64,000 nt of DNA from Haliotis cracherodii (lineage: Eukaryota), in contig NW_027266264.1 in NCBI RefSeq assembly GCF_022045235.1, positions 64,666,001 through 64,730,000 on the forward strand, in the 5' to 3' direction. A program made the translations under genes and the position numbers. Below the pieces are notes generated by a model. It was not told the DNA's origin, searched no databases, and saw nothing but the letters and a program-made list of their open reading frames with translations. Position 1 is the first letter of the stretch, and every line of letters starts with the position of its first letter. Shown here in pieces: positions 1 to 51,468 of this stretch.

Positions 1-999
1 TGTCTTCCCACTGACTGGTTCATGGTGCAACATCCCCATCGCCTTCACAAACTGAGCAATATCTTTAGATCGTGGCTTCACTTTCGAGTTGCTGTGTGTA
101 CAAAGTCCCACAAAGGCTGACAGTAAGGACTGGGTCAACGGTTTGTGGTATACAGAGGCTGATGCATAAAATGCTGCAATATGCATCAAAACTGAAGGAT
201 TAATTGTTGTCTGAATGAAGGACAAAGTCAATATTTTGTCTGCAAAGTTTTGAAAGAAACTGAATTTGAAAAAGCTTGAATGGGACAATACTTTGGTTAT
301 ATTTATCAACATATTTTTCTCCACGAGTTCAAGTTCATCGACAAGTCTTTGACTGATTCGATCTAGAAGCTCATAAGATAATATTCGCACATTGCCTCGA
401 AAAAATCCAAGACAAATTAATCCTATATCATTGATGTGTAACATTTCCAGGTTAGTTGACAAATAATCTTCGACTTTTTTAAAAAGCATTGACGGTGCCC
501 TCCCGTGGAAATACACAAAATACATCAAATGGACGACAGTTTTGGGGGTGTAAGCACTGAAATCTGTATGCAGAGCATAATCAAACAGTCGAGGCAGGAA
601 CATTACTTCCATGTAGTTATGAGAAACATATACATCTGCAACTTGTAACGACTTGTCGAGTCCGATGTCATTGATGCGTGTACTGAATCCCTTCTCTACA
701 TCACGTCCAGCAGCCAAAGTTTTACTCAAATTGTTAATTTCACTTATCCAATCCTTTTCATCCACTGCATTCATGGATGCCCCATTCAATGTAGTGTTTA
801 TATCTGCCAGTATTGACTGTTTCTTCATAAACGTCAAGATTTTGTTGGCCACTCGGAATGGTACAGGGTTCCTCTCAAATCTGTCGTTCCCTGAGCGTTG
901 CTTGGTAGCAGCAGAGGCATGCCTGGGAGTGGCTGCACAGATGTTGTTGGGGAACTGACCCCTGCTGGCCAGCCTGGCAATGTTTCTTAGTGCCAACAT
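1..999 (-). CDS. FASTKD5: FAST kinase domain protein 5-like, paralogue A; first coding exon, open to the window edge (333 aa seen)
   Basis: Manual translation from ATG at 999 is stop-free to base 1: MLALRNIARLASRGQF... (Arg/Ala/Leu-rich, presequence-like), then VHLMYFVYFHGR, INDIGLICLGFFR and RSKDIAQFVKAMG. These match FASTKD5 motifs (VGTICLGFFK, RSKDVAK). A splice acceptor ttttcag lies just upstream (AG at 1061-1060). Confidence 0.85.
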   Translation of the reverse strand, partial: MLALRNIARLASRGQFPNNICAATPRHASAATKQRSGNDRFERNPVPFRVANKILTFMKKQSILADINTTLNGASMNAVDEKDWISEINNLSKTLAAGRDVEKGFSTRINDIGLDKSLQVADVYVSHNYMEVMFLPRLFDYALHTDFSAYTPKTVVHLMYFVYFHGRAPSMLFKKVEDYLSTNLEMLHINDIGLICLGFFRGNVRILSYELLDRISQRLVDELELVEKNMLINITKVLSHSSFFKFSFFQNFADKILTLSFIQTTINPSVLMHIAAFYASASVYHKPLTQSLLSAFVGLCTHSNSKVKPRSKDIAQFVKAMGMLHHEPVSGKT

Positions 1000-1599
1000 G
1001 TCGTCACTGACAATGTCTATAAGGGTACAGGATCGCCACTGCAGTCTTGTTCTGCAATACTGAAAAGACATGATGGAATAATACGATAAAATATGTTAAC
1101 ATCGTTACACATACTGAACACTTAGGAATACTAAGATTAGACAGTTAAATAAAGAGAATCTAGACTAGGGCTTAACTGTCAGTCTGTGAGTGAGTGAGTG
1201 AGTAACTTTCATGTCAATCTCAATTCGTATTGTGTAGACAGGCTATCATATTGCATTGCAATTACTATCAAGATCAGTATCATGTCATGACAAAGTGTTT
1301 AATTACAGCCCTAGTTTCGATGGACATTTGTTAAATAAGCATAGCAATTAGCATTAGCAGCTATCTAAAAATAGCCTCCTAAAACGTCCACATCAACAAC
1401 TGGTCACATCTATCTCAGTACACTAGAAACTTTCATCATGGACACTTAATACATCTCCATCAGTCTGCTTGTTTACTCTGCTTGTATACTCTGTGTTCAT
1501 TAGTCATCCACTGGCTTCCAATTAGCTTAATCACCATCAACTAGTCACTGTAACAACTTAGATGTCAATAAGTGTATATATACCTATGTTGTTTAGCCC

Positions 1600-1690
1600 T
1601 ATCCATCACTTGCTTGATAAAGGTGTTATGATCTACACCGAAACGTCGCACTAATTGTAATAAAGAAGTTGTTCATCCATAGAACTTGTC
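1600..1690 (+). mobile_element. Penelope-like terminal-repeat remnant with minimal hammerhead-like motif
   Basis: TGC-TTGATAA-GGTGT..ACACC-GAAACGTC-GCA, followed by aataaagaagttgttcatccat, a tail shared with the element at 63342. Confidence 0.55.
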
Positions 1691-1786
1691 TTACTTCATC
1701 ACTCCAACTTCTAAATGCCACTCAAAGAAGTGACACTTAATACGTCTATAGGCTATTTAGGGTCCATGCTTTCATTTACAATTTAG

Positions 1787-1950
1787 ACACAAGAACTCGA
1801 TGATAGCGTGTATAACATAATTTATTCGTAAAGAAAAAAATCACACCCTTCTATAAACATATAGACATATGTTTATGGAAGGGTGTGATTTTTTTCTTTA
1901 CGAATATATTATGTTTTACACACGTACGCTATCATCGAGTTCCTGTGAAT
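1787..1950. repeat. Foldback/MITE-like palindrome
   Basis: Arms aactcgatgatagcgt...cacaccctt and aagggtgtg...acgctatcatcgagtt. Confidence 0.7.
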
Positions 1951-4058
1951 TTAGGCAACCACTGCATGGGGACTGATATGTCGAGGTGTGCTGAGTCATC
2001 AAAAGCTTGCAAAGCCACGACGACTCCAAGTCACAATTAACTTATCCAGCAGCTTACTCTGTTACCAAATTACATAATGCTGATCATGTTGTTTCATAAC
2101 GTAAAATCGTAAACATACTAAGATTGAGGACTTCGTATGTCCTTGTGAGATTTTGTAGAACTATCGTTCCGTGGCGCATCGGGTGAGGAATGAAAAGAAT
2201 TCTTACTGAAACTTTTGCAAGATGTCAACTGTCTACTTATCTTACCGTTTCTGTGATCAACCGATGAGAGCGGCCTGCTCTAAAAGTCAAGCATCACGAA
2301 AAGCAATATTCAGACAGAAGCTGTTTCCACGCGAGATTGCAAGCTCCAAACAGCGTGATCTTTATCTTCGAATGTACAGTGTGTTGACGAGGCCGATACC
2401 AAGCGTTGGGGTGGAGCTTGATGGTTATCTAATGTAAGCTGGGCCCCGTCTCTAATATCACAATATAGCTTGGCGCAAGTTGACGACGCGCACAGAGAGC
2501 CGGGAACCAGCTTATATCTAATGCATACTGGGATCCGGGAGTAAACAAACTCGATGCATTGGAGCATCGGGGCACAATAAAAAAGTTACCATTCTCTTAT
2601 CATAAAGAACACAATTAGCATCAATCAGTGTCATGAACTCTGATTTATTATGATTGCAAGGTCGAGAAAATATATTATTTTCAAGCTCCTATCAGCGCCT
2701 GACAAGTTATTTCAAGCTTCTCACAGCGATTGCCCATTCGCGGAGCTCTCTACCGGTAGTGTAACGAAGGTTTAACGCGCTGGGAAGGAGTTTTAAGTTC
2801 GTGATACCAATGTGAGGAGATTAGGCTTTTTATAACTAGGATGGGCTACGTAATTGTGCGCTGCAATTTGCGATAACTAGTTTAGAAGAAAACCGTGAGC
2901 TCAAAACATCATCATATGCAGTACCGCTGTGGTGCACAAGGAGAGCCGAGGAAGGTACACACGCTGCGCTAGAGCTTAGCAATACTCACCACGAGGAAGC
3001 TTAACTGGTTCCTCTGTTGGAATGCGTTGCCGCATTCACATATTTAGAAATAGGTTTTTGGAGACAAACTCAAGTCTAAAAGAAGCGTTGATAGACATGT
3101 GAAGGTTACGGGAATCCAACATCAACAGTCTCATACCGGCAGGTAGATCTAGTTACCGTTATGACAGCCTCTATTTGCGATAAGTACTGACAGTGTGTGG
3201 AATTGAGACGCATTAGCGGGGCTGACTTCCGAGATCGTGAATGCAGTAGACCTGTATGTAATTTGATTGAAGGAGATCGAGGCAACAACACTGACCTATG
3301 TCACGAATCATTGACCGCTTATTGACTGCAAGGCACATCAGTTAGTTAATCTAAATGTATACACATGTTGCTGTCGACATGACCAATGCCGTATAACACC
3401 TGTAGATTGTCTTGCCAAGACTGACAGAACTACAAGATTCATTCACTCACTCATGTTTGTTTGTTAATATCGCAATCAGCGATATTCGTATGCCCACGGT
3501 CTGTAAATAATCAAATCTGGATCAGACTTTCTAGTAACATGACACTAGATCCTCCATTTGGGACATGACATGCATCAACCATGCAGCTTGTTGAGGCTGA
3601 GTCTGCCCACATGAACCATTTAGCCACCTCTCACGACAAGCATAGGACCGATTCCGGGGTAGAACTGGTCTTCATGAATTGATAATGACCTGTTTGATCA
3701 CATATAATACGCGAGTTTCCTCCTCAGCTTAAGCCTGCATCTCTTGTCATCCCTTTGCTCGGGACCCGTGAAGATTCCGGGGTAGAATGGGTCTTCAGGA
3801 GCCCATGCTTGCTGTAAAAGGTGACGCGTGGATTGATGCTCATGTTGTCAATCACTGGATTGTCCGGCCCAGACTCAGTTATTTACAGACCGCTGTCATA
3901 TAGGTTTAATATTGCTGAGTGCGGCGTTAAACAACAAACAATGCGAACCTCTCCATTTAAAACAGCTGTATTGGTACTTGATAAGAGGAGAGAATAATGG
4001 CAGATCTAGTGAATGAGGACATGTTTCCTACATTTCAGGGGCCCAGTAACATGTGGAC

Positions 4059-5562
4059 ATGAAGGTGTCATCTTTATACAAGTTGACGTGCCAGTATGGC
4101 CAAGCATTTAGGAGAGCTTGGATCCTGCATGGGTCCAGATGCAAGTCAGAATACCTACAACTCTCCCGCTGTTCCTCGTCAGTTTCATCAGGGAGAGGTC
4201 CTGGCCCAAGGACGGGTTCCCATCTTCACACAGCTCCGATCAAGCGTCCAGGCTCGGTGGCAGATTTCATTACCATGCAAGGGTTACAAGTTACAGACAA
4301 CGCACTAGCCAAAACACGTGAATTTGAAAACGAGTACTATCATTTTTACTTGGAACAGTCTGAGTTTAGGGAATATTTTCTGTCTGGAAGTCTCAAGGAT
4401 TCTTTCCAGCACCCAGATGCAAAACCATCTTCGCAGGTTTGGGAAAATAAACATTGTGAAAGTACGAACAGTGCTGATCAAATTGTATCTGAGCATGTAA
4501 GGCAGTTGTGGGAAGCGTCAGAAAGGCAAGACACAGATTCTGTGATAAAGTCAATGTGTGAACTGTCCAGATACCTAACTACAGAATTACCTGTCGTCAA
4601 TGACGATACATTGTTACAATGCATGAGAAATATCATAAAATACCCATTCCGAGACTGCCTCACAGGAGAGTCTAGAGTCCTTCGCTTAGAGATTGCAACT
4701 TTATTTCAGAAGGAATTCCTGAGAAGACATTCCGAATGGGACATGAAGACATATTTCCTCGCTGCAGACTTTCACTACCATTTTCGACTAAGTTACAGCA
4801 TAAGCCGCTTCATGAAGTCCTTTTTCAACCTTATGCAGAAAAACATTCACGACCTTTCTCACGGAGACCTCGTTGTTCTTATGTATCACGTGTCCCTCTA
4901 CCGAAAAATGTCCAGGTACACGTTGTTGTTACTCGTTGAAATAATTTCGGCAAGACTCTCTGAGTTTAACGCCCAAACCATTGGCATCGTTTGTTTAGGC
5001 CTTTTCAAATCAGAGTGGTATTGTCCGAATAAACAGCTTTTAAACAAGATCATTGATTTATCAGGAGGCATCGTCAATGAGCTAGATGATGTTTCCCTGA
5101 CAGCTCTTCTTAAGTATCTGCGGAGGTACACACACAGACGAATGATATTTGCTGTACCAGATAAGTACCAGACATTAATAGATCTCCAACCAGTGCTTCA
5201 AGCCCGTATGCAAGACACTCATCACAGCACTCTGATAAACATTGTTCATCTTTACGAACATCTCAACGATATATCTGCAGATATGATTCAGGAATTGTGT
5301 AGAATTCTGTTAAAAGAAGATTTGGAAAGTTGGCGCCTCAAGGATCTCGCCAAGTTTTGCTCCATGGTTGGGAGGTTATCGTTCCCTGTTCAAGGACGAA
5401 GAGAAGCCTTTAAGAAAATAGTATTGGAGTTGGCTTCCAATAGGCGTGCCATTGAGATGAGAACATTCATGCCATCATTTGTAGCTTGTCTTCGTGGAAT
5501 GTCTCTTGATGGATTCTACCCACTGGAGTTGATTAGTCAGCTGTTCAGCACTACAGAGGGAT
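4059..5562 (+). CDS. FASTKD5: FASTKD5-like B coding exon 1
   Basis: Acceptor ttcag ends at 4038, ATG at 4059; donor GTGAGT at 5563, with an alternative GTAAGT at 5569. Confidence 0.88.
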
Positions 5563-8500
5563 GTGAGTGTAAGTGTCCTTATGTTTTGCTTTGTGTTTTT
5601 TTTTTAGTTGATGCAAGACTCAGCAATATTCCAGATATATCATGGCATCCTATAAATAATCAAATCTGGGCCAGACAAACCAGTGATTGATATTCTGAGC
5701 AACATCCCACATGGTAGGGATACAATGACACGCAATCAGCCATTCAGTTGCCGTTTGGACAACCATAGGTTGCTAAGGACTTAATCTAACCTGGAATCCC
5801 CACAGTGTTTCGAGGTTAATAGAAAGTGTTATGATTTTTAGATAAAGTACTAGAGCTTCAAAATCCATTATAAAATTATGTACTTTATATTTCTATTGCA
5901 CGATTGTTAAGAAAGTTTGTAAAACGACAATCCATTAAGAGATTAAGATTCCAGTCTAGTTGTCGCAAGTCGTATATTTTTATAAGTAATGACACTCCAG
6001 AACCCATCACGCCCATGCTTGTCTCTTCTTTTGGGTTCCGGGCAGTATTAGTGACATAGCGCCTGTGCATAGTGCTTGTTATGACCATAATAAGGGAATA
6101 GATACAGTCCTAAGATCAAAGTGAGTGAGTTGGGTTTTACGCCACTTTTAACAGTATTCCAGTTATATCACGGCGTGTCAGCTTAATGTGGGAGGAAAGC
6201 CCGAAAGGGTGCAGGTCTCAGACGTTTACCACTTCAGTGAAACCCACGAGCACGGGTATGGTGCTGACAAATCTAGAAACATAATCGGGGCGAACCGTCT
6301 AAGATCAAAGGAGCAGTGGGGTAGCCTTGTGGTTAAAGCGTTTGCTTGTTACATCAAAGACCTGGGTTCGATTCCCTACATGGGTACAATGTGTGAAGCC
6401 CATTTCTGGTGTTCCCCGCCATGATATTGCTGGAATATTGCTAAAAGTAGCATAAAACCATACTCATTCCAAAAGATCAAACCACCAACCCCAATAATAA
6501 ATAACCACTCCTTAAGAACCAACTAATAAGGATTGGGTGGCTGTTATTGTGTGTCATCTGCTCATGCCATCATCCACTGGTTTACCTAGTCAGCAACATG
6601 GAGTCACACTACACAAGTAAAAGGGATATGTCATCTCCCAACTATTTTGAACTGAGAAAGTATTGCCTCATGTCTCTGTACACAGATCGGATACACATTG
6701 GCCAGAACCTGTACCACGTGTCGGAGAGCGTGAAGATCGAGGTCCCCCACTACACGGGACCGTTCCTAGCTGACCAGGGACAGATCGCTCTTGGCAGGGT
6801 ATGCTTACTACATGATCACAGACAGAATTTTGGGATGTTTTGTTTTGTTTAATTATAGGCACTGCAATTCGTAGAGAGGAGTTTTGTTATAAGCTAAGCA
6901 TGTTAAGTGGGTCAGAAATCTATGATCATGAGTTTGAATCCTGGAATCGCCATGATTATATTTCTTGAAACCTCTGCTTATGGGTGTTTACCTAACACGT
7001 CAACAGTCGCAGACGTAACGTGTACGCGTGACGGCTCTGCTGTCTCTTGTACGCGAGACGGGTGCGGTCCGCAGTACTCAGTGAAGAGCTTGATACTAAT
7101 TATTTCAATCACCAAAGTGGTAAGCATCTGAGACCTGCATCACTTTCAGCTGTTCCTCCACATAAACATGATGAAGCTGATACGCCGTGATATAGCTGGA
7201 ATACTGTTCACAGTAGCTTAAACTAAGATCACTCACCATTTCAGTTCCAAGTTGGCAGTATTAGGCATGCCTGGTAATACTACAGTATTGTCAAATCTAG
7301 ACCTCAACCATGGAATCAGGAGATAGTGAGTGAGTAAGTGAGTTGGGTTTAATGCTGCTTTTAGCACTATTCCAGTTTTATCATGGCATGTCAGCTTAAT
7401 GTGGCAGGAGAGCCCGAAGTGATGCAAGTCTGAGACATTACAACTTTGGTGAAACCTACAAGCACGAGTATGGTGCTGACAATCCTGGAAACATAATCGG
7501 AGCGAACTGGGATTCGAACCCACAATCATAGGTTACTGGCATATGCATGGCCAAGGGATGCAACTCTGTACAAGAACAATACATCCAAACGTTTTATTCT
7601 TACTTCTGATAGGTGAGCATTTATTTATTAATAATACAATGGCTGCAGGGATACATGTGTGCATTAGGATTGTTTTCTGTACCAACATGAAAAAAATAAT
7701 TAAAATATGAAAATCTGTACTTTACTAAGAAAGTGTTATCACAAATACATGAATATTCCTGTTAGTCATTTCATTGGTAGGTCATAGTTTGCGAAAGGTT
7801 GTTCTGACGTGACCTGTTATTGGATGTCCTAGCCGATAGCTCGGGCAGATAACCACAGAGTATGCTGATCACTGTGTCGGATTAACGAGACTGATTAATG
7901 ATTGATTTCGGTAATTCATTGCAAATTAGGTGTGTCAGCATCAGAGTGCGAGACTGTCGGATGAACGGGTCTAAATAGCACTGATTTAATAGGTTCCCAT
8001 CATTAGTGTCGATAAAGCCAATTGTCGGATTTACGAGTGTCAGATTAACTAGACGTGACTGTATATATAACATAACATTTGTTACATCACCATGATCAAC
8101 ACAATTGGTATTGAATACACTATTCTGATTTTTAAATATGCTTTCAGTGCAGGAAGTATGAGTCTGTTCAACAAAAGCAAAACCAGAAAAAAGTAGAAAG
8201 AGAAGACTTGACAAATGAACTGATCTGCTTGTACTCGAATATCCTCGGTGGGAAAGAGTATGTGCATCTTGGCACACTCCTTTCTCACTACAATACCCCT
8301 GGTGAGTACCGTCCTCTAGCTGCCTCCACGGTGATTAGTGTACAGGCAGTGTGTGACAAACTCACTTGAAAACACTACCTCTGAGTTATATCGGGGCGGT
8401 CGGGTAGCCTAGTGGTTAAAGCGTTTGCTCGTCACGCCGAAGACCCGGGTTCGATTCCCGACATGAGTACAATGTGTGAAGCCCATTTCTGGTGTCCCCC

Positions 8501-11400
8501 GCCATGATATTGCTGGAATATTGCTAAAAGCGGCGTAAATCCATATATATACATATAAAACCGGTATATAACAGTGTGTCAGTGAGGGAAAAGGCCTAAA
8601 GAGATGCAAGCCCGAGACAGTTTCCAATTTGGTGAAGGCCCCTAGCATGGTACGGTACTGACAAAACAAGTATCTGAAATTAATAACCATGATCATAGGA
8701 TGCTGGAGTATCTAAGGGAGATAACTCTACATGGATAGGAGGACAATCAGGATAGGAGGAGACTTAATACTGGCAACAACACTGATAGGTTTTCATTGCT
8801 GAAGTGACTTGCTGGTAAGCAAAATCTAGGAAAACTCTCCTCACATCTGTGGTCAACCAGTCTTAAAATGAAACCTAGTGCTCCGATTATCAGGATCGAA
8901 ACAACTCTATGTACACATCTCTTGGTGGGGAGGTGCACAATTGGATGTGTTGTACAATGTACGTAATTGAGTATTAATCTAATTTGAACCTCACAGTCAA
9001 GGTTAGTGAATATTTTACACACTGACAAAGAATGAACTTTAACATTACATCTGTTAGAACACATATGCACATGCAAATGAGTATGTGGGCACATGGAACT
9101 TGTATTATGTCTATTGTAAAACAGGTGATGCATGGATATGAACAGCTGTGACGAGCTATAGAGCTTGTGTGTAATATGATTTACTGTACCCGCCTACTTG
9201 CAATGATTGTTTTGATAATCTGCAACCAGTTGCTTTTAACTTCGTACACATCCCCCTCCTCCTACGAACTTGATTGTAAAATCTATAGCTTCAAATCTTG
9301 GTGAAAACATTTCTTTTTACTGTAACAGTATTTTAATCATTATGCGATATTTACATCCCAAATCGTGGTACACAATTCTTAGTCGTTAGGTGAATACATC
9401 TAGAGATTCAGGGTTATCCTTTTGATTTTGTCATCATGACATGCAGGAGTGGACTTCGTGTTTCAGACATTGAACTGAGACTTGATTCTCACGGGACAGC
9501 GATACCCGTAGCTGAATGGACCACTCAGGCAGCCAACAAGAATCAAAGGCCACATGTCAAGTATGTCAGAGACTTTACTCAGCTTTCATGTTGGTACCTA
9601 TTTGAGGTTATTTGAAATGGGTATTTAACGTTGCATCCAAGATTATTGCACTTATACTACTCAAAAGAAGTTAAGGATCACGTGATTCTTTCATATTACA
9701 ATAGTTAATCTCTCACGCCATGACAGATTAACATTACCAATAGGAAAGAATGGGGTGATTCTTAACTTCTTTTGAGTAGTTTATATTGCCTGTATAGTGT
9801 GTTGATGTCAGCAAATGATTTGTATTGGGGTTTTGGTGCATGGTTTCAGCTCCTATGGGGATTCCAGGCTAGAACAGGTCCCCAGCAACCTATGCTTGTA
9901 CGCAGAGGGTAAATGAAACGGGTGATCTGACTGTGATTTGGTTGATTGCATACCATTGTACCCTGACAGCATGGGACGTCACTCGTAACATCCATTCCTA
10001 TTTTGTCTGGTCCAGACTCGTTAGTTTTAGGCCACCACTGTGGCGGGAATATTGTTAAAAGTGTGCTGTCAGACAACAGAAGGCATGTCTTTACCTTGTG
10101 CACACCTGGTCCTGTCTGTGGTTGCAGAGTGGCAGTGCTGCTGTATCCCTTCAACGCCATCTACCTACTGCGGAGGCTGCAGGGAGACGTGGAGATGCAT
10201 GTGTCCGGCTACTATCTGTGTAAAGCAAGGCAACTCAGGCAACTTGGCTATCAAGTCGTGGAGGTATGGCTGGGATGAATCACTGTCTATAACTGGGTTT
10301 ACTGAAGGAGAACAGGATGGGACTATAACATGATAAATACTCACACAAGATACAACTGCCCCGTGAAGATCAGGGGTAGAATAGGTCTTCAGCAACCCAT
10401 GCTTTGCTGTAAAAGGTGACTATGCTTGTCGTAAGAGGCAAATACGTAACAGGATCGGTAGGTCAGTCTTGGTGACTCAGCTGATGCATGTCATCGTATC
10501 CCAATTACGTATATCAATGCTCATGATCACAATGATTGGATTGTCTGGTCCAGACTCAATTATTTACAGACTGCCATAGTATAGCTGGAATATTGCCGAG
10601 TGTGGTGTTAAACAAATAACAAATCAAACCAAACAAGCAACAACCTAACGAATCCTGAAGGCCTCAAAATATCTTTATCATGCCCAGTTCTCTTGAATAT
10701 CCCGATATCTCGATGTTACGAGACAGTCCTGTTAGGGTTTGACTGTATATGTAGGAGCAGCTCTTTAACAATTTTATCCTGCATGCATAGCTGTTCAACC
10801 CCATGGGGAACCGGGGCAGAATAGATCCCAGCATCCTTTGCATGGGGTGGTTATCACTATATCAGCTGATGCCCACTGAGTAGATGTTGCTCACAACATC
10901 AATCACTGGTTTATGGTTTATCTGGGCGAGACTTGATTATTAACAGGCTGCTGGACATAGCTGGAGTATTGCTGATTGTGGTGTAAGATTTGATTTGATA
11001 AACGTACTAGTGGTGAACACAGTTCTGAAGAACACTTGTTTGCTTCCTACCCTAGATATGTAGAACGGGAACGGGTGGTCAGGCTCGCTGACTTGGTTGA
11101 TGCATGTCATCAGTCCCAATAGCATTGATCGATGCTCATGATGTCAATTACTGGATTGTCTGGTACAGACTCGATTATATACATATAGCTGGAATATTGC
11201 TGAGTGCAGCATTAACAACAAAAGAAAAAAACAACCCAAAAAACAACCTAGATATGTTCTGTGTTGGGCTATAATTCTGCATGATCTTCAGGTTTTCTGC
11301 TCTAATAACTCTTTTGTTGTCACAGATTCCTCACTATGAGTTTCAAGAAGCACAGGATAAGCAGTCCTACCTCAAACAGAAGTACTTGGAGCGATCATGA
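4059..11400 (+). CDS. FASTKD5: FAST kinase domain protein 5-like, paralogue B; spliced CDS join(4059..5562 or 5568, 6686..6798, 8148..8301, 9467..9560, 10128..10263, 11326..11400), about 691 aa
   Basis: All introns are GT-AG with consistent phases (1,0,1,2,0). Motifs IGIVCLGLFK, RLKDLAKF, FYPLELI, VKIEVPHYTG, ILGGKEYV, PDIELRLD and the RAP-domain end KARQLRQLGYQVVEIPHYEF are collinear with vertebrate FASTKD5. Confidence 0.9.
6686..6798 (+). CDS. FASTKD5: FASTKD5-like B coding exon 2
   Basis: acag|AT...AGG|gtatgc; encodes RIHIGQNLYHVSESVKIEVPHYTGPFL. Confidence 0.85.
8148..8301 (+). CDS. FASTKD5: FASTKD5-like B coding exon 3
   Basis: tttcag|TGC...CCTG|gtgagt; encodes NILGGKEYVHLGTLLSHYNTP. 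Confidence 0.85.
8392..8540 (+). mobile_element. tRNA-derived SINE family A
   Basis: A box tagcctagtgg, B box ggttcgattcc; other copies at about 6315-6470(+), 43138(+), 61784(-) and a partial near 44245-44340(-). Confidence 0.85.
9467..9560 (+). CDS. FASTKD5: FASTKD5-like B coding exon 4
   Basis: tttcag|AC...TCAA|gtatgt; encodes (D)IELRLDSHGTAIP. Confidence 0.83.
9656..9782. mobile_element. Tc1/mariner-like MITE
   Basis: TIRs ctactcaaaagaagttaaggatcac and gtgattcttaacttcttttgagtag. Confidence 0.65.
10128..10263 (+). CDS. FASTKD5: FASTKD5-like B coding exon 5 (RAP domain)
   Basis: ttgcag|A GTG GCA...GAG|gtatgg; encodes VAVLLYP...KARQLRQLGYQVVE. Confidence 0.87.
11326..11400 (+). CDS. FASTKD5: FASTKD5-like B last coding exon
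   Basis: cacag|ATT; encodes IPHYEFQEAQDKQSYLKQKYLERS*, completing the RAP domain. Confidence 0.87.
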   Translation: MPHYEFQEAQDKQSYLKQKYLERS

Positions 11401-11483
11401 CAGCATGGTAATGCTGCATAGCAGATGGCCAAACCAAACTTACCACTGTTTGCAACCTCTATTCAGTGGACAACAGGATATCA

Positions 11484-11752
11484 ACCAATCAAGAGAATCT
11501 TGATACCGGCCAATCAAGAGAATCTGGATACCGGCCAATCAAGAGAGAATCTGGATACCGATCAATCAAGAGAATCTGGATACCGACCAATCAAGAGAAT
11601 CTGGATACCGGCCAATCAAGAGAGAATCTGGATACCGACCAATCAAGAGAATCTGGATACCAGCCAATCAAGAGAGAATCTGGATACCGACCAATCAAGA
11701 GAGAATCTGGATACCGACCAATCAAGATTGAGTCAGGATATCGACCAATCAA
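11484..11752. repeat. 25/27-bp minisatellite in the FASTKD5-like B 3' UTR
   Basis: About 10 units of ccaatcaaga(ga)gaatctggataccg. Confidence 0.9.
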
Positions 11753-12478
11753 GAAGGGCAGTGTTACATGACAAGCTTTGTGTGAACTAGTATGCTGTCG
11801 AGAGTCAAGTATTCCAACACATACATGTGTGTAAGTCAACAAACCAAAAGGACATGTTTAGATATGGGGAAATGAGTGTTTATTGACAACTCCATCTTTC
11901 AATGCCATAAAGTTATTCTGTACAATGTTATGTACATACTGTACACATGAGGGACAGCGGGATGCGGAGTACTGCAACATGAACAGCCGGAGTGCATCTG
12001 CTCCATCATTGTTCACACACCTACTTCAACAAGTTATCCCATCCTCAGGACTAATCACATTATCAGATTTAATGAAATATGTATCAGTGCCATATTAACA
12101 TGATTAAAGCAAAGAAACATAATTTTTGTCTACATATTTTCAGCATAGCAGTACTTTCATTCCAGAAAATGTTGAACTTGGTGAACTCTTCAAAAGCAAT
12201 GCCACAAAGAGACAAAACATGACACTTTGCTTAATGTTGCAGACAGACAGATACACATGATAAACAATCTCCAGGAGTCCTGAACAGTCCAGTCATTGCT
12301 GTACACTAACATCTTACACCAAGGTTCCTCCTTGTGAGTTCCCATTAACTGTACAGTGTACAGGATGACCTGCATGCTGAAGATCACCAAGTGTCCTGTA
12401 ACATCAGAATTACTACAAACTTCATTGATACTTGTTCGATACAAGTCATCAAACATCATGATCATCTCCTGTCCTGTC

Positions 12479-12556: not shown

Positions 12557-15500
12557 CTGCAACAAATGATAAGTGAATTTCAGCATGTGACCAAGGTTGA
12601 ATGTATCCTTCACTTTATTCTACACAAAGAGCTTGTTTGTTTGTTGTTTAACGCTGCACTCAGCAATATTCCAGCTATATGAGGACAGTCTGTAAATAAT
12701 CAAGTCTGGACCAGACAATCCAGTGATTGACATCATGAGCATCGATCCACAAAATTGGAATATGACGACATGCATCAACCAAGTCAGCAAGCCTGACCAC
12801 CCGATTCCGTTAATCGCCTTTTTTGACAAGCATAGTCGCCATTTAGGGCAAGAATTTTCTTGGGTTGCTGAAGACACAAAGAGTACATGTACATGATCTT
12901 GGGCCTTGAATCAATGATTGGGCTTTATGATAAAATTATATGTTCAGTGATAGTAAGGTCATATGACAGTACACAAATACATGAATTTTGTTTCCATCAA
13001 CAAAGGGAATGACTTCAATTTCTTGTCCATACCCTGATATGAAACAATAAATAAATGACATTTCAGCAGATCTTGTATGCATCCATTTTGTTTATTCAAT
13101 ACTGTACCTCGTTAGGGGTGACAACTTTGAGTTTCTCTGCAACTTGTGCAAAGGTTTCATCGCCTGGACCATTCTTCTTACACATCTCCAGGCAAACTTT
13201 GTCCATGTCCCTGAAAGAAATGATAGAAGTAACATCACATTGTTACGAAGGTGAGAGGCGGTGAAACGTGCATGCACATGCGTGTGTGTGAGACTACTTG
13301 TACTAGTCCACTACTTACACTGGTTTTATAGAGCTAGTCCACTGAGATACCATGCCACAGTTTAAAAAGGGTCATGAAGATCAAAACACTTTATACCAAC
13401 GCTGGTGATGCTGCCAAGGGATCAAACTACCGACAGGCATTCTACCCACTAGACCACAAGGGAAGTCTTCTCATAAAGAAGGAATAACAGACAATTACAC
13501 GAATATCTGATGCAGAAGAACACAGCTCGATGAAAGCCAGTGTACTTGTTTCACAAGACTTATATTGTCATGATACCTTAACTAATGGGCAGTTTGGCAA
13601 GGACGAGAGGACTAGTTCCAATTTCTATCGCTGGTGATGTCAGCCTGTACACATGGCAAATAACTTGGTCAAGGTTGGCTGGCAAAGCCTTCAGGGAATG
13701 ACACTCAATCGGCCAGATCACACATTGTCACCATTAATTTTATATATCATCTTTTATGGCAAACATACAGTACTGCGGACCTACACTGCCCCAAATCTGT
13801 CCCCGGAACTACCGTAGTCGTAAGAGACCTGGAACCTGTGGGGTTCCGGGTTACAATTGGTCCAAAGCTACCTATGCTTGAAGTAAGGGGTGAATAATTG
13901 AATCGTGTTGTCAGGCTCAGTGACTTGGTTCAAGGCACGTCATCAAACCTCAATGGGTTAAAATATCACAGAGATGCCAACCCTAACTTCGGAGTAATCA
14001 CTGGAGAAAAAAATCATTATTTCCTGTGAAAAAAAGTAATGTTAAGAGTACCATGCAGGTGCTGTTTTTTTATACGTATACAGGCCTATACGTACGTGAA
14101 GCATAGGTACACATGCATTGACGTTAGTACTGTAGCTGCACATATAAGCCGCACTATTTTATAAACGGGACAATAAAGCTAAAAAAAAAGCAGAAAAAAT
14201 GACTCCTCTTGCGTTTGTATAGTTAAATATGACCAAACCTCGAAACTGAATATCAATCCAAACATAAAAAAATATGGACATCAACATAAAGTACTCAAAG
14301 AGAAGTTCCACAACGGCATGCGACAACCTCATCAGTGACATACATTGGGCCCACATTTCAGACAAACATGTATTTTGAATAACTTTGGTAATTATATATA
14401 GATTATTAATCACTCATGAAAGCATTTAATTCAAGGTGTTGTGCATTAACCATTTGCTCTCTGTGATATATTATACATGTAAATAATTTGTCCAAAAAAT
14501 GTCAAAACTCATAATTTGGGTAGGATAAGCGTAATAGTGTAATTTTAGGCTGAAAAGCATAATCATTACGCCAAAGGAGCAATGGTTGGCATCTCTTATA
14601 TCATACTCCAGACTTGGTAACTTACGTTTGCTGAAATCAGCGTTAGAAATTGGCACTAGTCCTATAGTCCTTGCCAAACTGCCCAATGGTAAAATAACAT
14701 AAGGACTAGTAAAAAATTACCCTTTTCAAGGTTTTTGCTATATGTTATCATTATAAGGACTAGTGGACGAAAACTGTTAGTTTCTTACCCTGTGAAATAT
14801 TGCAGAGTACGGCTCTAAACAACAAACAACCAGATATCTGATTTTGTAACGTTTCAAAGTTTACTTTTTGTTACCAATTCCTACTCACTTTGTCCATTCC
14901 ACCTCAGTCTCCTCTTCCTCCTCCCACTCCATCGGTTCATCGGTGACAGGACCTGTCTGAGGTGAGGACGATACTGCACTGCCCACGGGTCCAAGCTGTG
15001 GGACATCATTGTCTCTCCCCTCAGTCAAAGCCTGGGGTTCATGTGTCCCCCAAACGCCATCGCTCTTCACAACAGCACTTGTTTCTCTGGACACTGCTGC
15101 CTGACTCGGTGGAAGGACCGATTCACCCACAGTGGGGGTATTCACCTCTGGATAACTTAGAGAAGATGCCCCAGACACTCCATGAGGCTGTAGTTTACCC
15201 TCACTATGGTCCATTCCCAGTGGAAAGGATTGTGCCCTTATGCCACTGCGTTCTGTACTGGGAGACTGTATAAGTGTCACTGGTATTCCGTCAACAGTCG
15301 TTACAACAGAGTTTCCAAATCCACCTGACTGACCTCCAATATTATTATTTTGGTGAGTACTTGAACCGCCTTGTAGATCATCTGGCTTATGGATGATGCC
15401 AGCTTTGACTAAATGTTCCTTCAACGATATAACACTCTGTTGGGTCACTTCGCTTGAAACAGGCATATTTTTCACAGGGGAATTATTTTTTGATCCAAAT

Positions 15501-18500
15501 GTTTTGAAATTGCTGGCCAAGAAGTTGTTCATGAAGTCCATGGACATTGATATTTCTGCATCACTTCTACTTATCTCTGCTGTTTTCATTGCCTTGGCAA
15601 GAATGTCTGACATACAACTCTGTGAAGCATCCCCTTGCATAGATTGGCCATCAAACATTTCCAGGATGGACATTCCGAAGCCTGTTCCAGACACACTGCC
15701 ACCGTCAGAGGCTTGGACTTGTGCTGATGTTGCCGTGCAGGACGGTGTGTTGGCTGCAGAAGCTGTCGGCGTTGGCATCTGTTTGCCACTGTTCAGTGTG
15801 ATGGCATCTGTATGAGATACGCCGACTGGCATCAGATTAGGGAAACTCACAGCTCCCTTGGACCTTCCTGCCTCAAAATTTGGTAATGAAGCTGCTTCCC
15901 TAGGAATCTTACTCTCCTTTACTGAAGGAACAGATGACCCAGACAGTGCTGAGATTGAGGAACCTATGGTTAATGTCGTTTTCACAGCTCCACTTGATCT
16001 CCCAGAAGTCTGAGTCACCCCAATAGAGATCTGTGTGACATTAGGACTAGAGGGACCCTTTGATGGAGACAGCTTTACAAATCCACCCATTTGCCCTGCT
16101 GGCTTGATAGTACTGGGTGGTGCAATCTCAATGAGTCTGTCGGACCCTGGGACCTGTGTTGAGGGGGTGGTGACAGAGGGGGGGACCAGGGTCAGAACAC
16201 TGGGACACACAGCTGTAACTGTAGCACTAGAGGTGAACACAGGACTAAAGGAGGTGAACATGACTGGACAGGATGTCACAGGAGTCGGGGAGTCGCCATT
16301 CTGATCCTGCAGTATCTGGTCCTGCATGATCACTGGGGGGTTGACGATGAGGTCATCGGGCACACTGACAACATATTCGGATGTCCGTGTGGCGGAAGTC
16401 TTTTCACGGAACTTCCTTGTTCTTGTCATGACACCTGCGTCAGAATGAGCACTTCCTGCTACCTCAGAGGCAGCATCCGACTCGCAGCTTGTCACCGGCT
16501 CCTGTTTGACCGGCTCCTGTTTGACCGGGGAGTATCCTATCTCATTGAGGGACAGAAACCTCTTCTGGCCAGCCTTCTGACGACAGATCTTCAACTGAAA
16601 GAGCAGGTTCATTTCATAAGTAATAAGATTAAATATACAATGGCATGTCTGAAAACAGCATATCAATTATTAGGAGCACAGCATCACTTTAAGCAGCAGT
16701 TGCCAGGTGTTGCAGTCAATGTTTTGTAAATTTTTTAATCATGGTTCCTTGGGTGAAAATAATATTCACACTTTTCGCTCATTGGAGAGAAAACTAGGCT
16801 ACTCTTCTGCCCAGGATCCTGTTTCACAAAGACATTGTAGTGTTACACTTTAGATTTGTTGCAACTCCCATAGTAACACTGATAAAAGTCATAGCTAGAA
16901 TCCCTAGGCCCTTGGTTTCCAAGACAGACTGAGACTGTACAATAAACCAATCTCACTTTGATCTTCTTTGCCCTGGCCGGCGAGGAGTGACTGACTGATG
17001 GGGACACAATGGTTGGCCGACTGCTGAGACAATTGTGGTTCTCCTTGTCTGCGGTCTGGTCTTCCTCCAGCTCCAGGGAGGTGCTGGTATGGGGGGAGGG
17101 GGGCATAGCCTTGTGGACCACCACTTCAGCTGGATGCAGCTTCTTGCTGCTAGGTTGGAAGTATAGCTTCCCATCAATCACCTGCAACAAATTACCTCGT
17201 CAATATACAATGTTCTGAGATCAATCTAGGAATTTTACATAAGTGCCTGTGGCCATTAAACTGCAAAAGAACATTATGTTGTCCCAAACTGAGAATCTTT
17301 AAAGGACGTTTCTCCATAAATAATGTATCAGAGCATGGTGTATTGATATAGATATAGAACTTCCTTTGAATGAGTACCCGAGGCAGGCAAGAGACTTTAT
17401 TTCTCTCATTGTTATACTACATCTGAGACAGGCAAGCTTGGGGATCGAAGAGGGCATGTAAGGAAACATCACTGCTCAAGGATCACAAAGGTGATCATTG
17501 CAGGTTGTAACACATTATCAGGGATGTGAGCAGGTTTTGCCCAAGAGAGAGGAAAACTCTAAGGGGGTCTGGGGGCATGCCCCCCCCATAAATATTTGGT
17601 TGCATTTTAAGCAATTTCGCGCCGTTTGGACATCCTTCAAACCAAGAAATATAATTAAGTCTATGGCAAAAGTCAAGTCAAATAAACAAAGATGGCAGAT
17701 GCAGTAAAATTACAAAGTTAAATCAGTACTTTTAAAAAATCTGGCACAGCTTCCATGCATCCGGCTACCCGCGGGGTCTGGATGTTCAAGCATATTGATA
17801 AAAGATTACCTTATACTTACCTTGAAAAAAACAAAACAACATTGCAATTAGACATTAATACAACATATATCCCCTGAAGGACGATGAAGAAACATACATA
17901 GTTTTCTCGCTAATCACATGAACAACTGTAAAACATCTCATTCACTTATGGGCTAAAAGACAACTTTATCTTAAAAACAAGCCATCTTCAGAGTATTAAC
18001 AATTGCTGTGAGACGCCACACCCCACGTTATAGTGCAAGTATTCGTGACAGAAAACATATGTGTCATGAATGATAGTAAAGGCATATATGATGCTGAAAG
18101 CTCTGATCGAAAACAGGACAATCCGCGACGGTTGGGCGAAAACACAATAATATTTTTCGGAGAATTTTTTCAAATCTTTGATTATATTTTTATGAGGAAG
18201 ACGATTTTTTCCGAGGACTACTGTTCTAAAAAACACGATTTTCCGCGTTTCCGCTGAGATTTCACATCCCTGCATTATATATACAATCCCTCCTCAGTCT
18301 CACCATCCTTTACAGTTGGTTGCATTTGAATGATATGTGAGTGAACTATATTTCCCATTTGGGAATTTGGGAAATTTTACTTTTAATTGCTCCAGACTTG
18401 GAGGCCTCTGAGCAGGTGTAAATAAATCATTTTACAGACCTAACAGTAGATTACGTACCTTGAGACAACAGTTGAAGCAATGTCTGATGCGTTTGTGCAG

Positions 18501-24500: not shown

Positions 24501-27500
24501 TTCAGTAGTTTCTGAGACGCAGAATGCACGAAGTAAAAAAGAACAGAGCAAGGGCCAAACTAGGTAAAAAATGAATTTAAGACACCAACTATCAAACTCA
24601 TTTAACATCATGACCAGTAATATCAATGTGTAAAGTTTCACTTCTCTAACTTGAATATTTTTTTAGACACTTTGTCCCCTTTGAGAATGGACAAACTCCA
24701 TTCCTATATCCTCTGCTACACTTCAAGGTGGGGGATAAAAATGCACCTTGCAGAACCATTCCTCACTGCACCTACCTTCCACTATATTTTTTTATTTCTG
24801 AGTACTTCTTCTTGTAGAAGAAACGACAAAAAAACCTTATCAAATTGGATATAAAACCAAATTTGTTAAAAACAATATGATGACAACAACTGTGATGAGG
24901 AGAATATGGGATGTACAAATTACCACCATGAAGTTGAACAGAAGTTGTCTTTTGTCCATACACTTTAAACAAGAACTTCCTAAACTTCAGACAAAACTAC
25001 ATTTTCTTTTACATGAAAATATGCCAGTGATTGCTAATCAATAGAATTTCTGTGCTCAATTCCACTTGTACAACAAACAAAGGAAGAGGTTGCCACAGTG
25101 GAAAGATAAGCATGTGATAAGAGCTCTCTTCAACTGGAAATGTCAAATATTTAAGTTACGCCTAACCAATACATTACACATTATTTCAAGTCCCAAACAA
25201 TTGTTAAAAGTAACAACTCCAATTCTAATACATATGACCAAATCTTCGGATCTTGAGGGCCAATAATATGGGAGTTTTTCACACCATGTCCTTTAACTTT
25301 TCATACTAAAACATATTATGACCTAATTACAGCATAACGCTACTCCACATCAGCTGACTGGACAGGTGGAACTTGGCTCTCACCAGTCATAATATAACTG
25401 ACCCAACCAGCCCATGAAGGGTTCTCAAACAGTCATAAATAATTGTGTCAACAAAACCAAGATGGGAAGAAAGCATATTTACTGATACTGGTGATATCAA
25501 GTGGGCCACGCTGTATTATTAGTCAGCATTGAACAAGTGGACCACTTGCTGTCTGTCATATTCTGTTTTATGCTCCATCTGGGTCCTATGACACACAAAC
25601 CTTAAGCCACTTCTGACTTTAACACTTTTGAGGCCCCAGAAAACTGCAATGACTCGGCTGATTCAGTGTGCAATATATAGCAATCCAAAGCCAAATTATC
25701 ACAAAACCGCTACCAAACTTTTGATTCTCAACATACACCCCTTAATGAACTGTTTGATTGGCATTTGAAGAAGGTGGTAAGTAGCAGTAAAGACTTTATG
25801 GATGACAACTTCTTTATTCCATTAGACCCCTAAATGGCTGTATGACATGGTGCACAGCGATAGAAACTCACAGTTTTAGTCCACTAGTCCTTATAAAGAA
25901 AACATATAGCTAACACTTAAAAAGGGCATATTTCTACCAATTATTGAGCAGTTTGGCAACGACTACAGGACTAGTGCCAATTTCTAATGCTGCTGCACCA
26001 AGGTAAATGGCTTCAGCTTGAGCAGGTGCTTCCTGCCTAGGTGGTGGGTGTTGATGGGTTAACTCTCCTCCTGACCTAGCCACGTGAACAGTGAGGAGAC
26101 CACTCACGCCAGCTGTCTTTCACCTGCCAGTCCTCACGATGTTGCTCCATACAGACATAACGCTCGGAGACAGTCAAATCTCTAGCTGTGAGTACAAGTA
26201 GTCGCTTACATAACTCACACAGCTTGTATGCTGTATGTTCTCACTGAGCAGAGATCTGTGTTTCGTGTTAATGTGTATATCCAGGAGGATTATGAACCAG
26301 AGAGACGTTTGTGATCATCTTGATGTCTTGGATCATGTCCATACACATCTCGATACTGGGTAAAATCGGTGCCACCATTTCCACCATCCAATCATAAACG
26401 TGAGCTATCGTGTCAACCCAACAATGGCAGGGAACTCAACGCAAGAAATGACAACAATAATGTTTGATGTCGACATGACGGAGAACGGTACAAACTCAAC
26501 TCTCAATGGCACAGATGGAGGTATTCGTCCACCAATGCCATCCTTTGATCTGGAAACTATTCTCAACTCGTATGTAGAGTACCGATGGTCGAGATACCTC
26601 GGTATCTACTGTTACCCTATTCTTGTTGTGCTTGGAACTATAGGCAATGTGCTAAGTTTTATTGTGATGACTAGGAAAACGATGCTGAGATCGTCCACCT
26701 GCTACTACATGGCCGTGTTGGCAGTTGCCGATACTATGGTTCTGTATTTCGGTTGTCTCCGGAAGTGGTTCGCTTACCTCACTGGATGGGATGCTCTCAT
26801 ACTGAGTCCAGCGGCTTGCAAAATATTCAACTTTCTCACGTACTGGAGTTTTGACTTTGCAGCTTGGATACTGGTTGCCATGACAGTGGAACGCTACATT
26901 GCCATACACTTTCCATTCACTGTCACTAAACATGCAACTATTCCCCGAGCTAAAGTTGTGTCCATTTTTCTTGGAGTGATTTTCGTGGGGATCAACGCTC
27001 ACTTCTTTGCAACAGTGACCATCAGTGATAGGGGATACTGCAGCTCTCAGGAAGAGTACATCCGATTCAATGATTATGTGTTTCCATGGATAGATGCAGC
27101 CTTGTATTCCTTCATTCCCTTCATCGTTCTGCTTGTGTTCAACATCCTTATCATCCTCGACAGCAGGAAAGCCATTAAGCGACAACAAACTCTTCAAGCA
27201 TCATCACTGAATAACACAAATACCTTTACCATCCGTTCAAACTCACGTCTAACGGTGATGCTTCTGTCAGTGTCCTTGACCTTCCTTGTGGCCTCTGCAC
27301 CGAAAGCTGCTCTAATTATCATAAAGCCATACACTTTCGACTTCTACGATGGGCCTTTGGTTGACTTCCATCTACTATCGAAGTACACGCTGACGGCTTC
27401 GGTGATGAACTTCTTAACGTATGGCAACCATGCCATAAACTTCTTACTGTACTGCATCAATGGACAGAAGTTCCGCAGCGAGTTGAAACGACTCATATAT

Positions 27501-51267: not shown

Positions 51268-51468
51268 TTCATGTTGGTATGAAGATCAAGAGCTGATGAC
51301 AACATGTGAGTTCTGTCTGGATCTCCCATAGTCCGAGGTACATGGTAGAATATATCACCTATCATTGAACACTTTCACCACAGTGACTGGCTTCATTCTT
51401 TAGTTTGACAAGTACTGTGTATCTGAAACTGTAAACACAGGCAAAAGTAAAAATCTGTATCTTAAAGT

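What the first reader, a model, noticed from the sequence alone, without database searches (positions are those of the whole stretch)
1..11400. Head-to-head pair of highly diverged FASTKD5-like paralogues
Seen: a minus-strand ORF (ATG 999, absent from the ORF track) and the plus-strand gene (ATG 4059) share FASTKD5 motifs (IGLICLGFFR vs IGIVCLGLFK; RSKDIAQF vs RLKDLAKF) but have no evident nucleotide similarity. Their starts are about 3 kb apart and diverge, and each has a splice acceptor shortly before its ATG. Known: FASTKD5 processes mitochondrial precursor junctions that lack tRNA punctuation. Inference: an old inverted duplication kept both copies under a shared promoter, possibly dividing non-canonical mt-RNA junctions between them.
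Basis: partly seen in the sequence, partly recalled or inferred. Interest (0 to 1): 0.7.

Follow-up and report, generated by a model that had tools for sequence, protein, structure and literature searches.

The report
Ancient FASTKD5 twins, one likely disarmed
An abalone carries two intact, back-to-back copies of FASTKD5, the enzyme that cuts mitochondrial RNA where no tRNA marks the cut; the copies likely split before molluscs and arthropods did, and one naturally has the histidine-to-asparagine change that stops cutting in the human enzyme, so it is predicted to bind RNA rather than cut it.

Summary
Gene A (minus strand, 612 aa, runs off the window's left edge) and gene B (plus strand, 693 aa) are intact six-exon FASTKD5-subfamily genes. 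They are 23% identical and spliced in public RNA-type contigs. The genome is abalone-like.

They are not a recent pair. In the tree A groups with molluscan, nemertean, priapulid and horseshoe-crab proteins (99/97). B groups with molluscan, annelid, nemertean and insect proteins (100/99). A lophotrochozoan-only duplication is rejected (AU p=4e-8).

New here: A keeps the full His-Lys-Asp nuclease motif of human FASTKD5 (H273, K312, D313). B keeps Lys-Asp but has Asn394 at the catalytic His, as does its H. rubra orthologue. A 2026 preprint reports that human H395N abolishes cleavage and keeps RNA binding. B's core is as conserved as A's (92% to H. rubra). The best reading is one cutter plus one non-cutting RNA binder, not two cutters sharing junctions.

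Against this: 11 of 46 proteins in the insect-containing B group also lack the His. A shared promoter is plausible but not shown, because B's first exon was not seen directly.

The parts
2246..2434 (-). Gene A non-coding first exon; 5' end at 2434 or beyond, donor at 2245
   Evidence: RNA-type contigs cover 2254-2345 (X2), 2246-2371 (X4) and 2246-2434 (X9), each joined to the sequence at 1059; X3 laid nothing
1..1059 (-). Gene A second exon (ATG 999). It continues 160 nt left of the window. Five more coding exons lie at G000:C1 64664280-64664189, 64662470-64662314, 64661878-64661752, 64660573-64660393 and 64659367-64659245. Protein 612 aa.
   Evidence: Model with GT-AG introns and no internal stop, identical to database protein P0002; Pfam FAST_2 1e-7, FAST_1 2e-5, RAP 3e-3
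61..183 (-). Gene A catalytic-motif codons: H273 (181-183), K312 and D313 (61-66), equivalent to human H395, K428, D429
   Evidence: Three independent alignments through bat FASTKD5, whose offset to human numbering fits 8 of 8 residues; codon positions computed from ATG 999
1800..3400 (.). CpG-rich stretch between the genes, candidate shared bidirectional promoter
   Evidence: CpG observed/expected 0.8-1.3 in 200-nt windows against 0.53 for the whole window
2435..2515 (.). End of a dispersed inverted-repeat element lying just upstream of A's mapped 5' exon
   Evidence: 55 matches listed in G000, most of them 83-96% identical to these ~80 nt; weak inverted partner at 2879-2940
3045..3142 (+). 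Candidate non-coding first exon of gene B (inferred, not seen directly)
   Evidence: B contigs carry 29-96 extra 5' letters and none was laid in 1990-2480. A CAG/GT donor lies at 3142/3143. X4 depth 2.63 in bin 2920-3336 equals about 92 nt at the contig's depth of 11.9.
4039..5568 (+). Gene B first coding exon (ATG 4059; aa 1-503), helical-repeat domain
   Evidence: predicted fold mean pLDDT 83, helical solenoid
5238..5240 (+). Codon for N394, the position of the catalytic His (human H395)
   Evidence: also N in H. rubra orthologue P0001
5340..5345 (+). Codons for K428 and D429, retained
   Evidence: positions computed from ATG 4059
6686..6798 (+). Gene B coding exon 2 (FAST_2 start)
   Evidence: contig coordinates leave 112-113 nt between flanking exons
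8148..8301 (+). Gene B coding exon 3
9467..9560 (+). Gene B coding exon 4
   Evidence: contig coordinates leave about 95 nt between flanking exons
10128..10263 (+). Gene B coding exon 5 (RAP-like; Pfam match weak, E 0.17)
11326..11400 (+). Gene B last coding exon, stop at 11398-11400; the 3' UTR continues past 12500

Best explanation
Two intact FASTKD5-subfamily genes that likely arose from one duplication at or before the protostome ancestor sit head to head, likely under one promoter; A keeps the His-Lys-Asp motif and is predicted to cut tRNA-less mitochondrial RNA junctions, while B has Asn at the catalytic His and is predicted to bind mitochondrial RNA without cutting. SHOWN here: gene structures, splicing in RNA-type contigs, subfamily, tree placement, residue states, and strong conservation of B's core. 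INFERRED: inverted tandem duplication as the origin of the adjacency, shared promoter, mitochondrial import, A's nuclease activity, B's loss of activity. B would most likely hold or protect precursor RNA ends, or present particular junctions to A, much as non-catalytic FASTKD4 assists FASTKD5 in human cells. Rough odds per step: old pair 0.9, A active 0.8, B non-cutting 0.6, shared promoter 0.7.
For: Tree of 38 proteins x 566 columns, LG+C20+F+G4: A side 99/97, B side 100/99, deuterostomes 99/97, each protostome side splitting into ecdysozoan and lophotrochozoan branches. AU rejects lophotrochozoan A+B as one clade, p=1.9e-4 without mixture and 3.9e-8 with. Gigantopelta and the nemertean Tubulanus each have both types. 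A and B orthologues share the same longest-contig length in H. rubra (1,948,122) and Gigantopelta (54,566,076). A = H273/K312/D313 and B = N394/K428/D429 in three alignments, in the same helix register in the two models. Human H395N abolishes cleavage and keeps binding (bioRxiv 10.64898/2026.05.28.728550). B core is 92% identical to H. rubra, 96% around the motif; A core is 92%. All 9 classified variants in B aa 226-503 are synonymous. The His is lost in the B copy of 3 of 4 named gastropod genera (N, K, R; kept in Gigantopelta) and kept in the A copy of 4 of 4. Tubulanus shows the reverse, A = E and B = H. N-termini are basic and nearly free of acidic residues.
Against: No activity, localisation or transcription start was measured. 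The His is not invariant elsewhere: 11 of 46 in the insect-containing B group have Q or N, including the one named insect, and 2 of 26 on the deuterostome side have Q, so cutting may not need it everywhere. B has another His at 397, one turn along the same helix; that column is Leu in 30 and His in 7 of 63 relatives, and no atomic distances were available. The H395N result comes from a preprint whose supplementary figure I could not see. B's first exon was not seen and could lie elsewhere, including 1060-1990. A repeat end sits between the two 5' regions. Only 1 of 7 insect-side and 2 of 4 ecdysozoan A rows carry names. The groups were drawn after a first tree. The root is assumed: the outgroup did not resolve it.
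Confidence: 0.5

Rival explanations
1. Both proteins cut and divide the tRNA-less junctions between them. B would use H397, or chemistry that does not need the His.
For: K428 is kept in 67 of 67 B-side proteins and D/E429 in 67 of 67; the His is kept in 48 of 67, including Gigantopelta, chiton, cephalopod and bivalve B, so the ancestral B was probably active. The vetigastropod mtDNA table shows nad2-cox1, cox1-cox2, atp8-atp6 and nad6-cytb without a tRNA between, plus overlapping nad4L-nad4 (PMC9690427 Table 2, a relative whose protein-gene order matches Haliotis rufescens); human has three such processing sites. Human FASTKD5 needs different residues for different junctions.
Against: Abalone B carries exactly the substitution reported to abolish cleavage. 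Lys and Asp also serve early RNA binding in that report, so their retention fits a binder. Position 397 is usually hydrophobic.
Confidence: 0.3
2. The two old paralogues work independently. Their adjacency is only a relic of the duplication or a later rearrangement, with separate promoters and no functional coupling.
For: B's start was not mapped; a repeat end lies between the genes; the Tubulanus copies are on different records; several lineages appear to keep only one type in this sample.
Against: One continuous CpG-rich stretch spans 1800-3400. Both genes are covered by spliced contigs in the same runs. The pair shares a record in two other gastropods.
Confidence: 0.17
3. B is a decaying duplicate or pseudogene.
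For: Loss of the catalytic His; weak RAP match; NCBI calls the H. rubra orthologue uncharacterized, with a shorter C-terminus.
Against: Open 693-codon model with canonical splice sites, spliced contigs from three studies, 92-96% core identity and only synonymous core variants among those classified, and orthologues across molluscs, an annelid and a nemertean.
Confidence: 0.03

Closest known systems
Human FASTKD5 (PMC12242768; bioRxiv 10.64898/2026.05.28.728550)
   Same: [quoted passage not shown]
   Different: Sampled vertebrates form one FASTKD5 clade; abalone has two anciently split copies side by side, one with the natural equivalent of H395N. A has Asn at the D589 position.
Human FASTKD4/TBRG4 (PDB 9GEK) as non-catalytic helper of non-canonical processing
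   Same: An RNA-binding FASTK protein without nuclease activity that assists junction processing; a working model for B. A's model matches 9GEK at E 2e-7.
   Different: B belongs to the FASTKD5 subfamily by tree and motif. The other three abalone FASTK genes lack R-x-K-D.
Drosophila CG2124
   Same: Named in the preprint as an unrecognised FASTK ribonuclease with His-Lys-Asp; shows an invertebrate FASTKD5 missed by reviews that count two fly FASTK genes.
   Different: Its sequence was not in my set, so its A or B type is untested. No paired paralogue is described for it in what I read.
Bidirectional (head-to-head) promoters of nuclear genes for mitochondrial proteins (recalled, no call)
   Same: Divergent genes around a CpG-rich stretch.
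   Different: Here the partners are paralogues of one enzyme family, and only one of the two starts is roughly mapped.

Membership tests
FASTK family | [quoted passage not shown] | tested here: met
   A: FAST_2 above cut-off, FAST_1 E 2e-5 and RAP E 3e-3 below cut-off. B: FAST_2 above cut-off in the H. rubra orthologue, RAP E 0.17; whole model scores E 8e-78 on a FASTKD5 profile built without it, positions 69-630 of 641.
FASTK family | N-terminal helix-turn-helix solenoid | tested here: met
   Models with pLDDT 84 and 83; top PDB matches are FASTKD4 and organellar helical-repeat proteins
FASTK family | Import into the mitochondrial matrix | not testable with these tools
   First 35 aa hold 6 basic and 0-1 acidic residues in each; suggestive only
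FASTKD5 subfamily | Closer to vertebrate FASTKD5 than to other FASTK genes | tested here: met
   Named relatives are annotated FASTKD5 or FASTKD5-like, or are unnamed; scores against bat FASTKD5. Vertebrate FASTKD1-4 were not in the tree; the outgroup was three abalone paralogues on long branches.
FASTKD5 subfamily | R-x-K-D motif (human R426, K428, D429) | tested here: met
   Present in A and B, absent from three other abalone FASTK genes
Active FASTKD5 ribonuclease, gene A | His-Lys-Asp catalytic motif | tested here: met
   H273, K312, D313
Active FASTKD5 ribonuclease, gene B | His-Lys-Asp catalytic motif | tested here: not met
   N394, K428, D429
Active FASTKD5 ribonuclease | Cleaves tRNA-less junction RNA | not testable with these tools
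   Needs purified protein
Bidirectional promoter pair | Divergent starts under 1 kb apart | tested here: inconclusive
   A's 5' exon reaches at least 2434; B's is inferred near 3045-3142; contigs cannot fix starts
Recent lineage-specific tandem duplicate | The two copies group together within the lineage | tested here: not met
   AU p=1.9e-4 and 3.9e-8

The most novel reading that the evidence does not exclude
Protostomes inherited two FASTKD5 genes. Where both are kept, one repeatedly and independently loses its catalytic histidine and becomes a conserved RNA-binding specificity partner for the active copy. Abalone preserves the original inverted pair under one promoter after more than half a billion years: a natural enzyme and pseudo-enzyme module for mitochondrial RNA punctuation without tRNAs.
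Probability: 0.3. Interest if true: 0.8.

Novelty: new variant of a known kind. Interest (0 to 1): 0.57.

Why it matters
FASTKD5 was shown to be the nuclease for tRNA-less junctions only in 2025, and its active site was proposed in a 2026 preprint. How it picks its sites is open. The papers read describe the family as expanded in vertebrates, with two members in flies. This locus shows a separate, very old FASTKD5 duplication in protostomes and at least five FASTK genes in an abalone. It also gives a naturally evolved, strongly conserved H395N-type protein next to a motif-complete twin. The pair is a ready test of the His-Lys-Asp model and of whether a non-cutting FASTK protein can direct a cutting one, in animals whose mitochondrial gene orders have several tRNA-less junctions.

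Tried and rejected
Shared intron positions as evidence of a special A-B link: rejected. A and B both have phases 1,0,1,2,0, but the unrelated paralogue at G000:C8:15.82 Mb has the same five, so the pattern is family-wide.

Rooting with three other abalone FASTK genes (one spliced model, two first-exon ORFs): branches over 3 changes per column, outgroup not monophyletic, root unresolved. Spliced models of those two paralogues were not used, so their C-termini are missing from that tree.

A-B complex prediction: no verdict, score 0.00, alignments not used; not evidence either way.

Sequencing-run search: no RNA holder listed on record; the runs are guessed to be RNA. I rely only on the exon-exact joins in the contigs.

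No mitochondrial genome found in G000 (COX1 search), so junction counts come from a related vetigastropod. Metagenome scan for other loci with the pair: 63 pattern hits, none confirmed. Single-sequence PDB search found nothing; the profile search found FASTKD4. Pfam on the first coding exons alone found nothing. Own-genome searches with A and B first exons found no third FASTKD5 copy (lower bounds). Earlier scan notes: nothing relevant.
Full report
Setting. The window is G000:C1:64666001-64730000. The closest named proteins are from Haliotis rubra and H. asinina at 82-84% over the first exons, so this is an abalone-like genome.

Gene structures. Gene B (plus strand) has coding exons 4059-5568, 6686-6798, 8148-8301, 9467-9560, 10128-10263 and 11326-11400, all GT-AG, giving 693 aa. 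Gene A (minus strand) starts at 999 and runs 6.8 kb beyond the left edge. With the neighbouring stretch it has six coding exons and 612 aa without internal stop, identical to database protein P0002. The proteins are 23% identical over 462 aa (E 8e-18); the best DNA match is 38 nt. Both have intron phases 1,0,1,2,0, but so does an unrelated FASTK gene on C8, so this is a family trait. Searches with RAP and FAST_2 plus a profile scan show three further FASTK genes, at C8:15.82 Mb, C8:23.00 Mb and C2:51.47 Mb: at least five in all.

Transcription. No run is on record as RNA; 18 of 23 listed are guessed RNA. In all 4 runs laid (3 studies) single contigs join B's exons and skip its introns, with record coordinates matching the modelled exon sizes. 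Contigs of 2100 and 2131 nt cover A's exon and run off the window by 943 nt, which fits 840 nt of spliced CDS plus UTR. In a narrow second lay, 3 of 4 runs show A's non-coding first exon from 2246 up to 2345, 2371 or 2434, joined to 1059. A donor at 3142 and the X4 depth in bin 2920-3336 point to an exon near 3045-3142; this is inference. CpG observed/expected is 0.8-1.3 over 1800-3400 against 0.53 for the window. A repeat end lies at 2435-2515. A shared promoter about 0.6 kb wide is therefore likely but unproven.

Age. A profile search found 402 proteins at E<=0.001, of which the best 150 were listed. A first FastTree of 140 sequences of at least 400 aa put A and B in different deep clades. 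Thirty were looked up by name; 23 carried a name themselves and one more through a cluster member. A careful tree of 38 chosen rows (566 columns, LG+C20+F+G4) gives deuterostomes 99/97; an A side 99/97 made of Priapulus, Limulus and two unnamed rows (95/87) plus molluscs and Tubulanus (99/99); and a B side 100/99 made of an insect with six unnamed rows (100/98) plus molluscs, Owenia and Tubulanus (99/98). Forcing lophotrochozoan A and B together is rejected (p 1.9e-4; 3.9e-8). The duplication is thus at or before the protostome ancestor. Whether it predates the deuterostome split is open, because the outgroup failed. Limits: rows were chosen after the first tree, many are unnamed, and end branches are long. 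A and B orthologues share a longest-contig length in H. rubra and in Gigantopelta but not in Tubulanus, which suggests old linkage in gastropods without showing adjacency.

Active site. Bat FASTKD5 maps to human numbering with an offset of 52 at 8 of 8 published residues; primer contexts in the paper's supplement agree for H395 and R426-D429. PMC12242768 names D429 as essential. The 2026 preprint defines His395-Lys428-Asp429 and reports that H395N abolishes cleavage but keeps binding. A has H273, K312, D313. B has N394, K428, D429, as does H. rubra B; three alignments agree, and the predicted helices are in register. Across 152 aligned rows (hits under 250 aa and two duplicate isoforms dropped; clades from FastTree, with weak support of 0.20 for the lophotrochozoan A node) the His is kept in 24 of 26 deuterostome-side, 40 of 59 A-side (28 of 34 lophotrochozoan A), 13 of 21 lophotrochozoan B and 35 of 46 insect-side proteins, while K428 is kept in 67 of 67 on the B side. 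Gastropod B has N (Haliotis), K (Patella), R (Babylonia) or H (Gigantopelta); Tubulanus lost the His in A instead. B is not decaying: its core is 92% identical to H. rubra, as A's is, and 9 of 9 classified core variants are synonymous. I classified 19 of the variants shown for B, from a table that displayed 40 of 284 rows.

Mechanism. Most likely both proteins enter the mitochondrial matrix (inferred). A would cut precursor RNA at tRNA-less junctions; a related vetigastropod has nad2-cox1, cox1-cox2, atp8-atp6 and nad6-cytb. B would bind such RNA through the retained basic trough without cutting, protecting ends or presenting junctions, as FASTKD4 is thought to do in human cells. The chief doubt is that the His is replaced in 11 of 46 insect-side proteins and that B has a spare His at 397, so B may still cut.

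Novelty. FASTKD5 plus mollusc gave 0 papers; searches listed no paper on a protostome FASTKD5 duplication. The library lacks most subscription journals. NCBI already annotates A orthologues as FASTKD5-like, so the genes are known as entries; the two-clade history, the head-to-head pair and the natural His loss were not found in print.

What I saw of each paper: PMC12687428 parts 1-3 of 6; PMC12242768 passages, section 35, first part of the Discussion and a supplement search; PMC8601606, PMC5449608, PMC5737537 and PMC9525292 passages; the bioRxiv preprint passages and section 16, supplements not seen, and its figure S15 bears on the H395N claim; PMC9690427 passages and tables. The half-billion-year age of the protostome split and the general link between bidirectional promoters and mitochondrial genes are recalled, not from a call.

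Verdict. A real and old feature, a new variant of a known kind; interest 0.57.

Noticed in passing
window 4051-4062: A three-codon out-of-frame upstream ORF whose stop overlaps gene B's ATG; it could tune B translation.
   Followed up: no
window 1788-1947: A 160-nt near-perfect palindrome (86%) in gene A's first intron, probably a short inverted-repeat element.
   Followed up: partly
window 11476-11754: 25-27 nt tandem repeat, about 11 copies, in gene B's 3' UTR; the UTR is covered by contigs past 12500.
   Followed up: partly
window 26364-27656 (+): Intronless rhodopsin-family GPCR (7tm_1, E 5e-21) lying on the opposite strand between large minus-strand exons at 14885-16666, 33819-37028 and 50521-51285, which may belong to one long gene; possibly a nested gene.
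   Followed up: partly
G000:C8:15.82 Mb (L017-L018), C8:23.00 Mb (L023-L024), C2:51.47 Mb (L020-L021): Three further FASTK-family genes without the R-x-K-D motif, sharing the large-first-exon layout; subfamilies not assigned.
   Followed up: partly
P0012 and P0124 (Tubulanus polymorphus): The nemertean lost the catalytic His in its A-type copy and kept it in its B-type copy, the reverse of abalone.
   Followed up: partly
P0022, P0047, P0053 (echinoderms): Echinoderm FASTKD5-like proteins fall in two separate groups on the deuterostome side, hinting at a further duplication.
   Followed up: no
P0049, P0055, P0057, P0059, P0065, P0097, P0101, P0104, P0118, P0127, P0134, P0146: A clade of unnamed 400-480 aa A-side proteins (probably first exons from assemblies); the A side outside the core groups often has N, T or Q at the His position.
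   Followed up: no
L002 4720-5690: About 1 kb tandem array inside gene A's intron 4 of the coding region.
   Followed up: no
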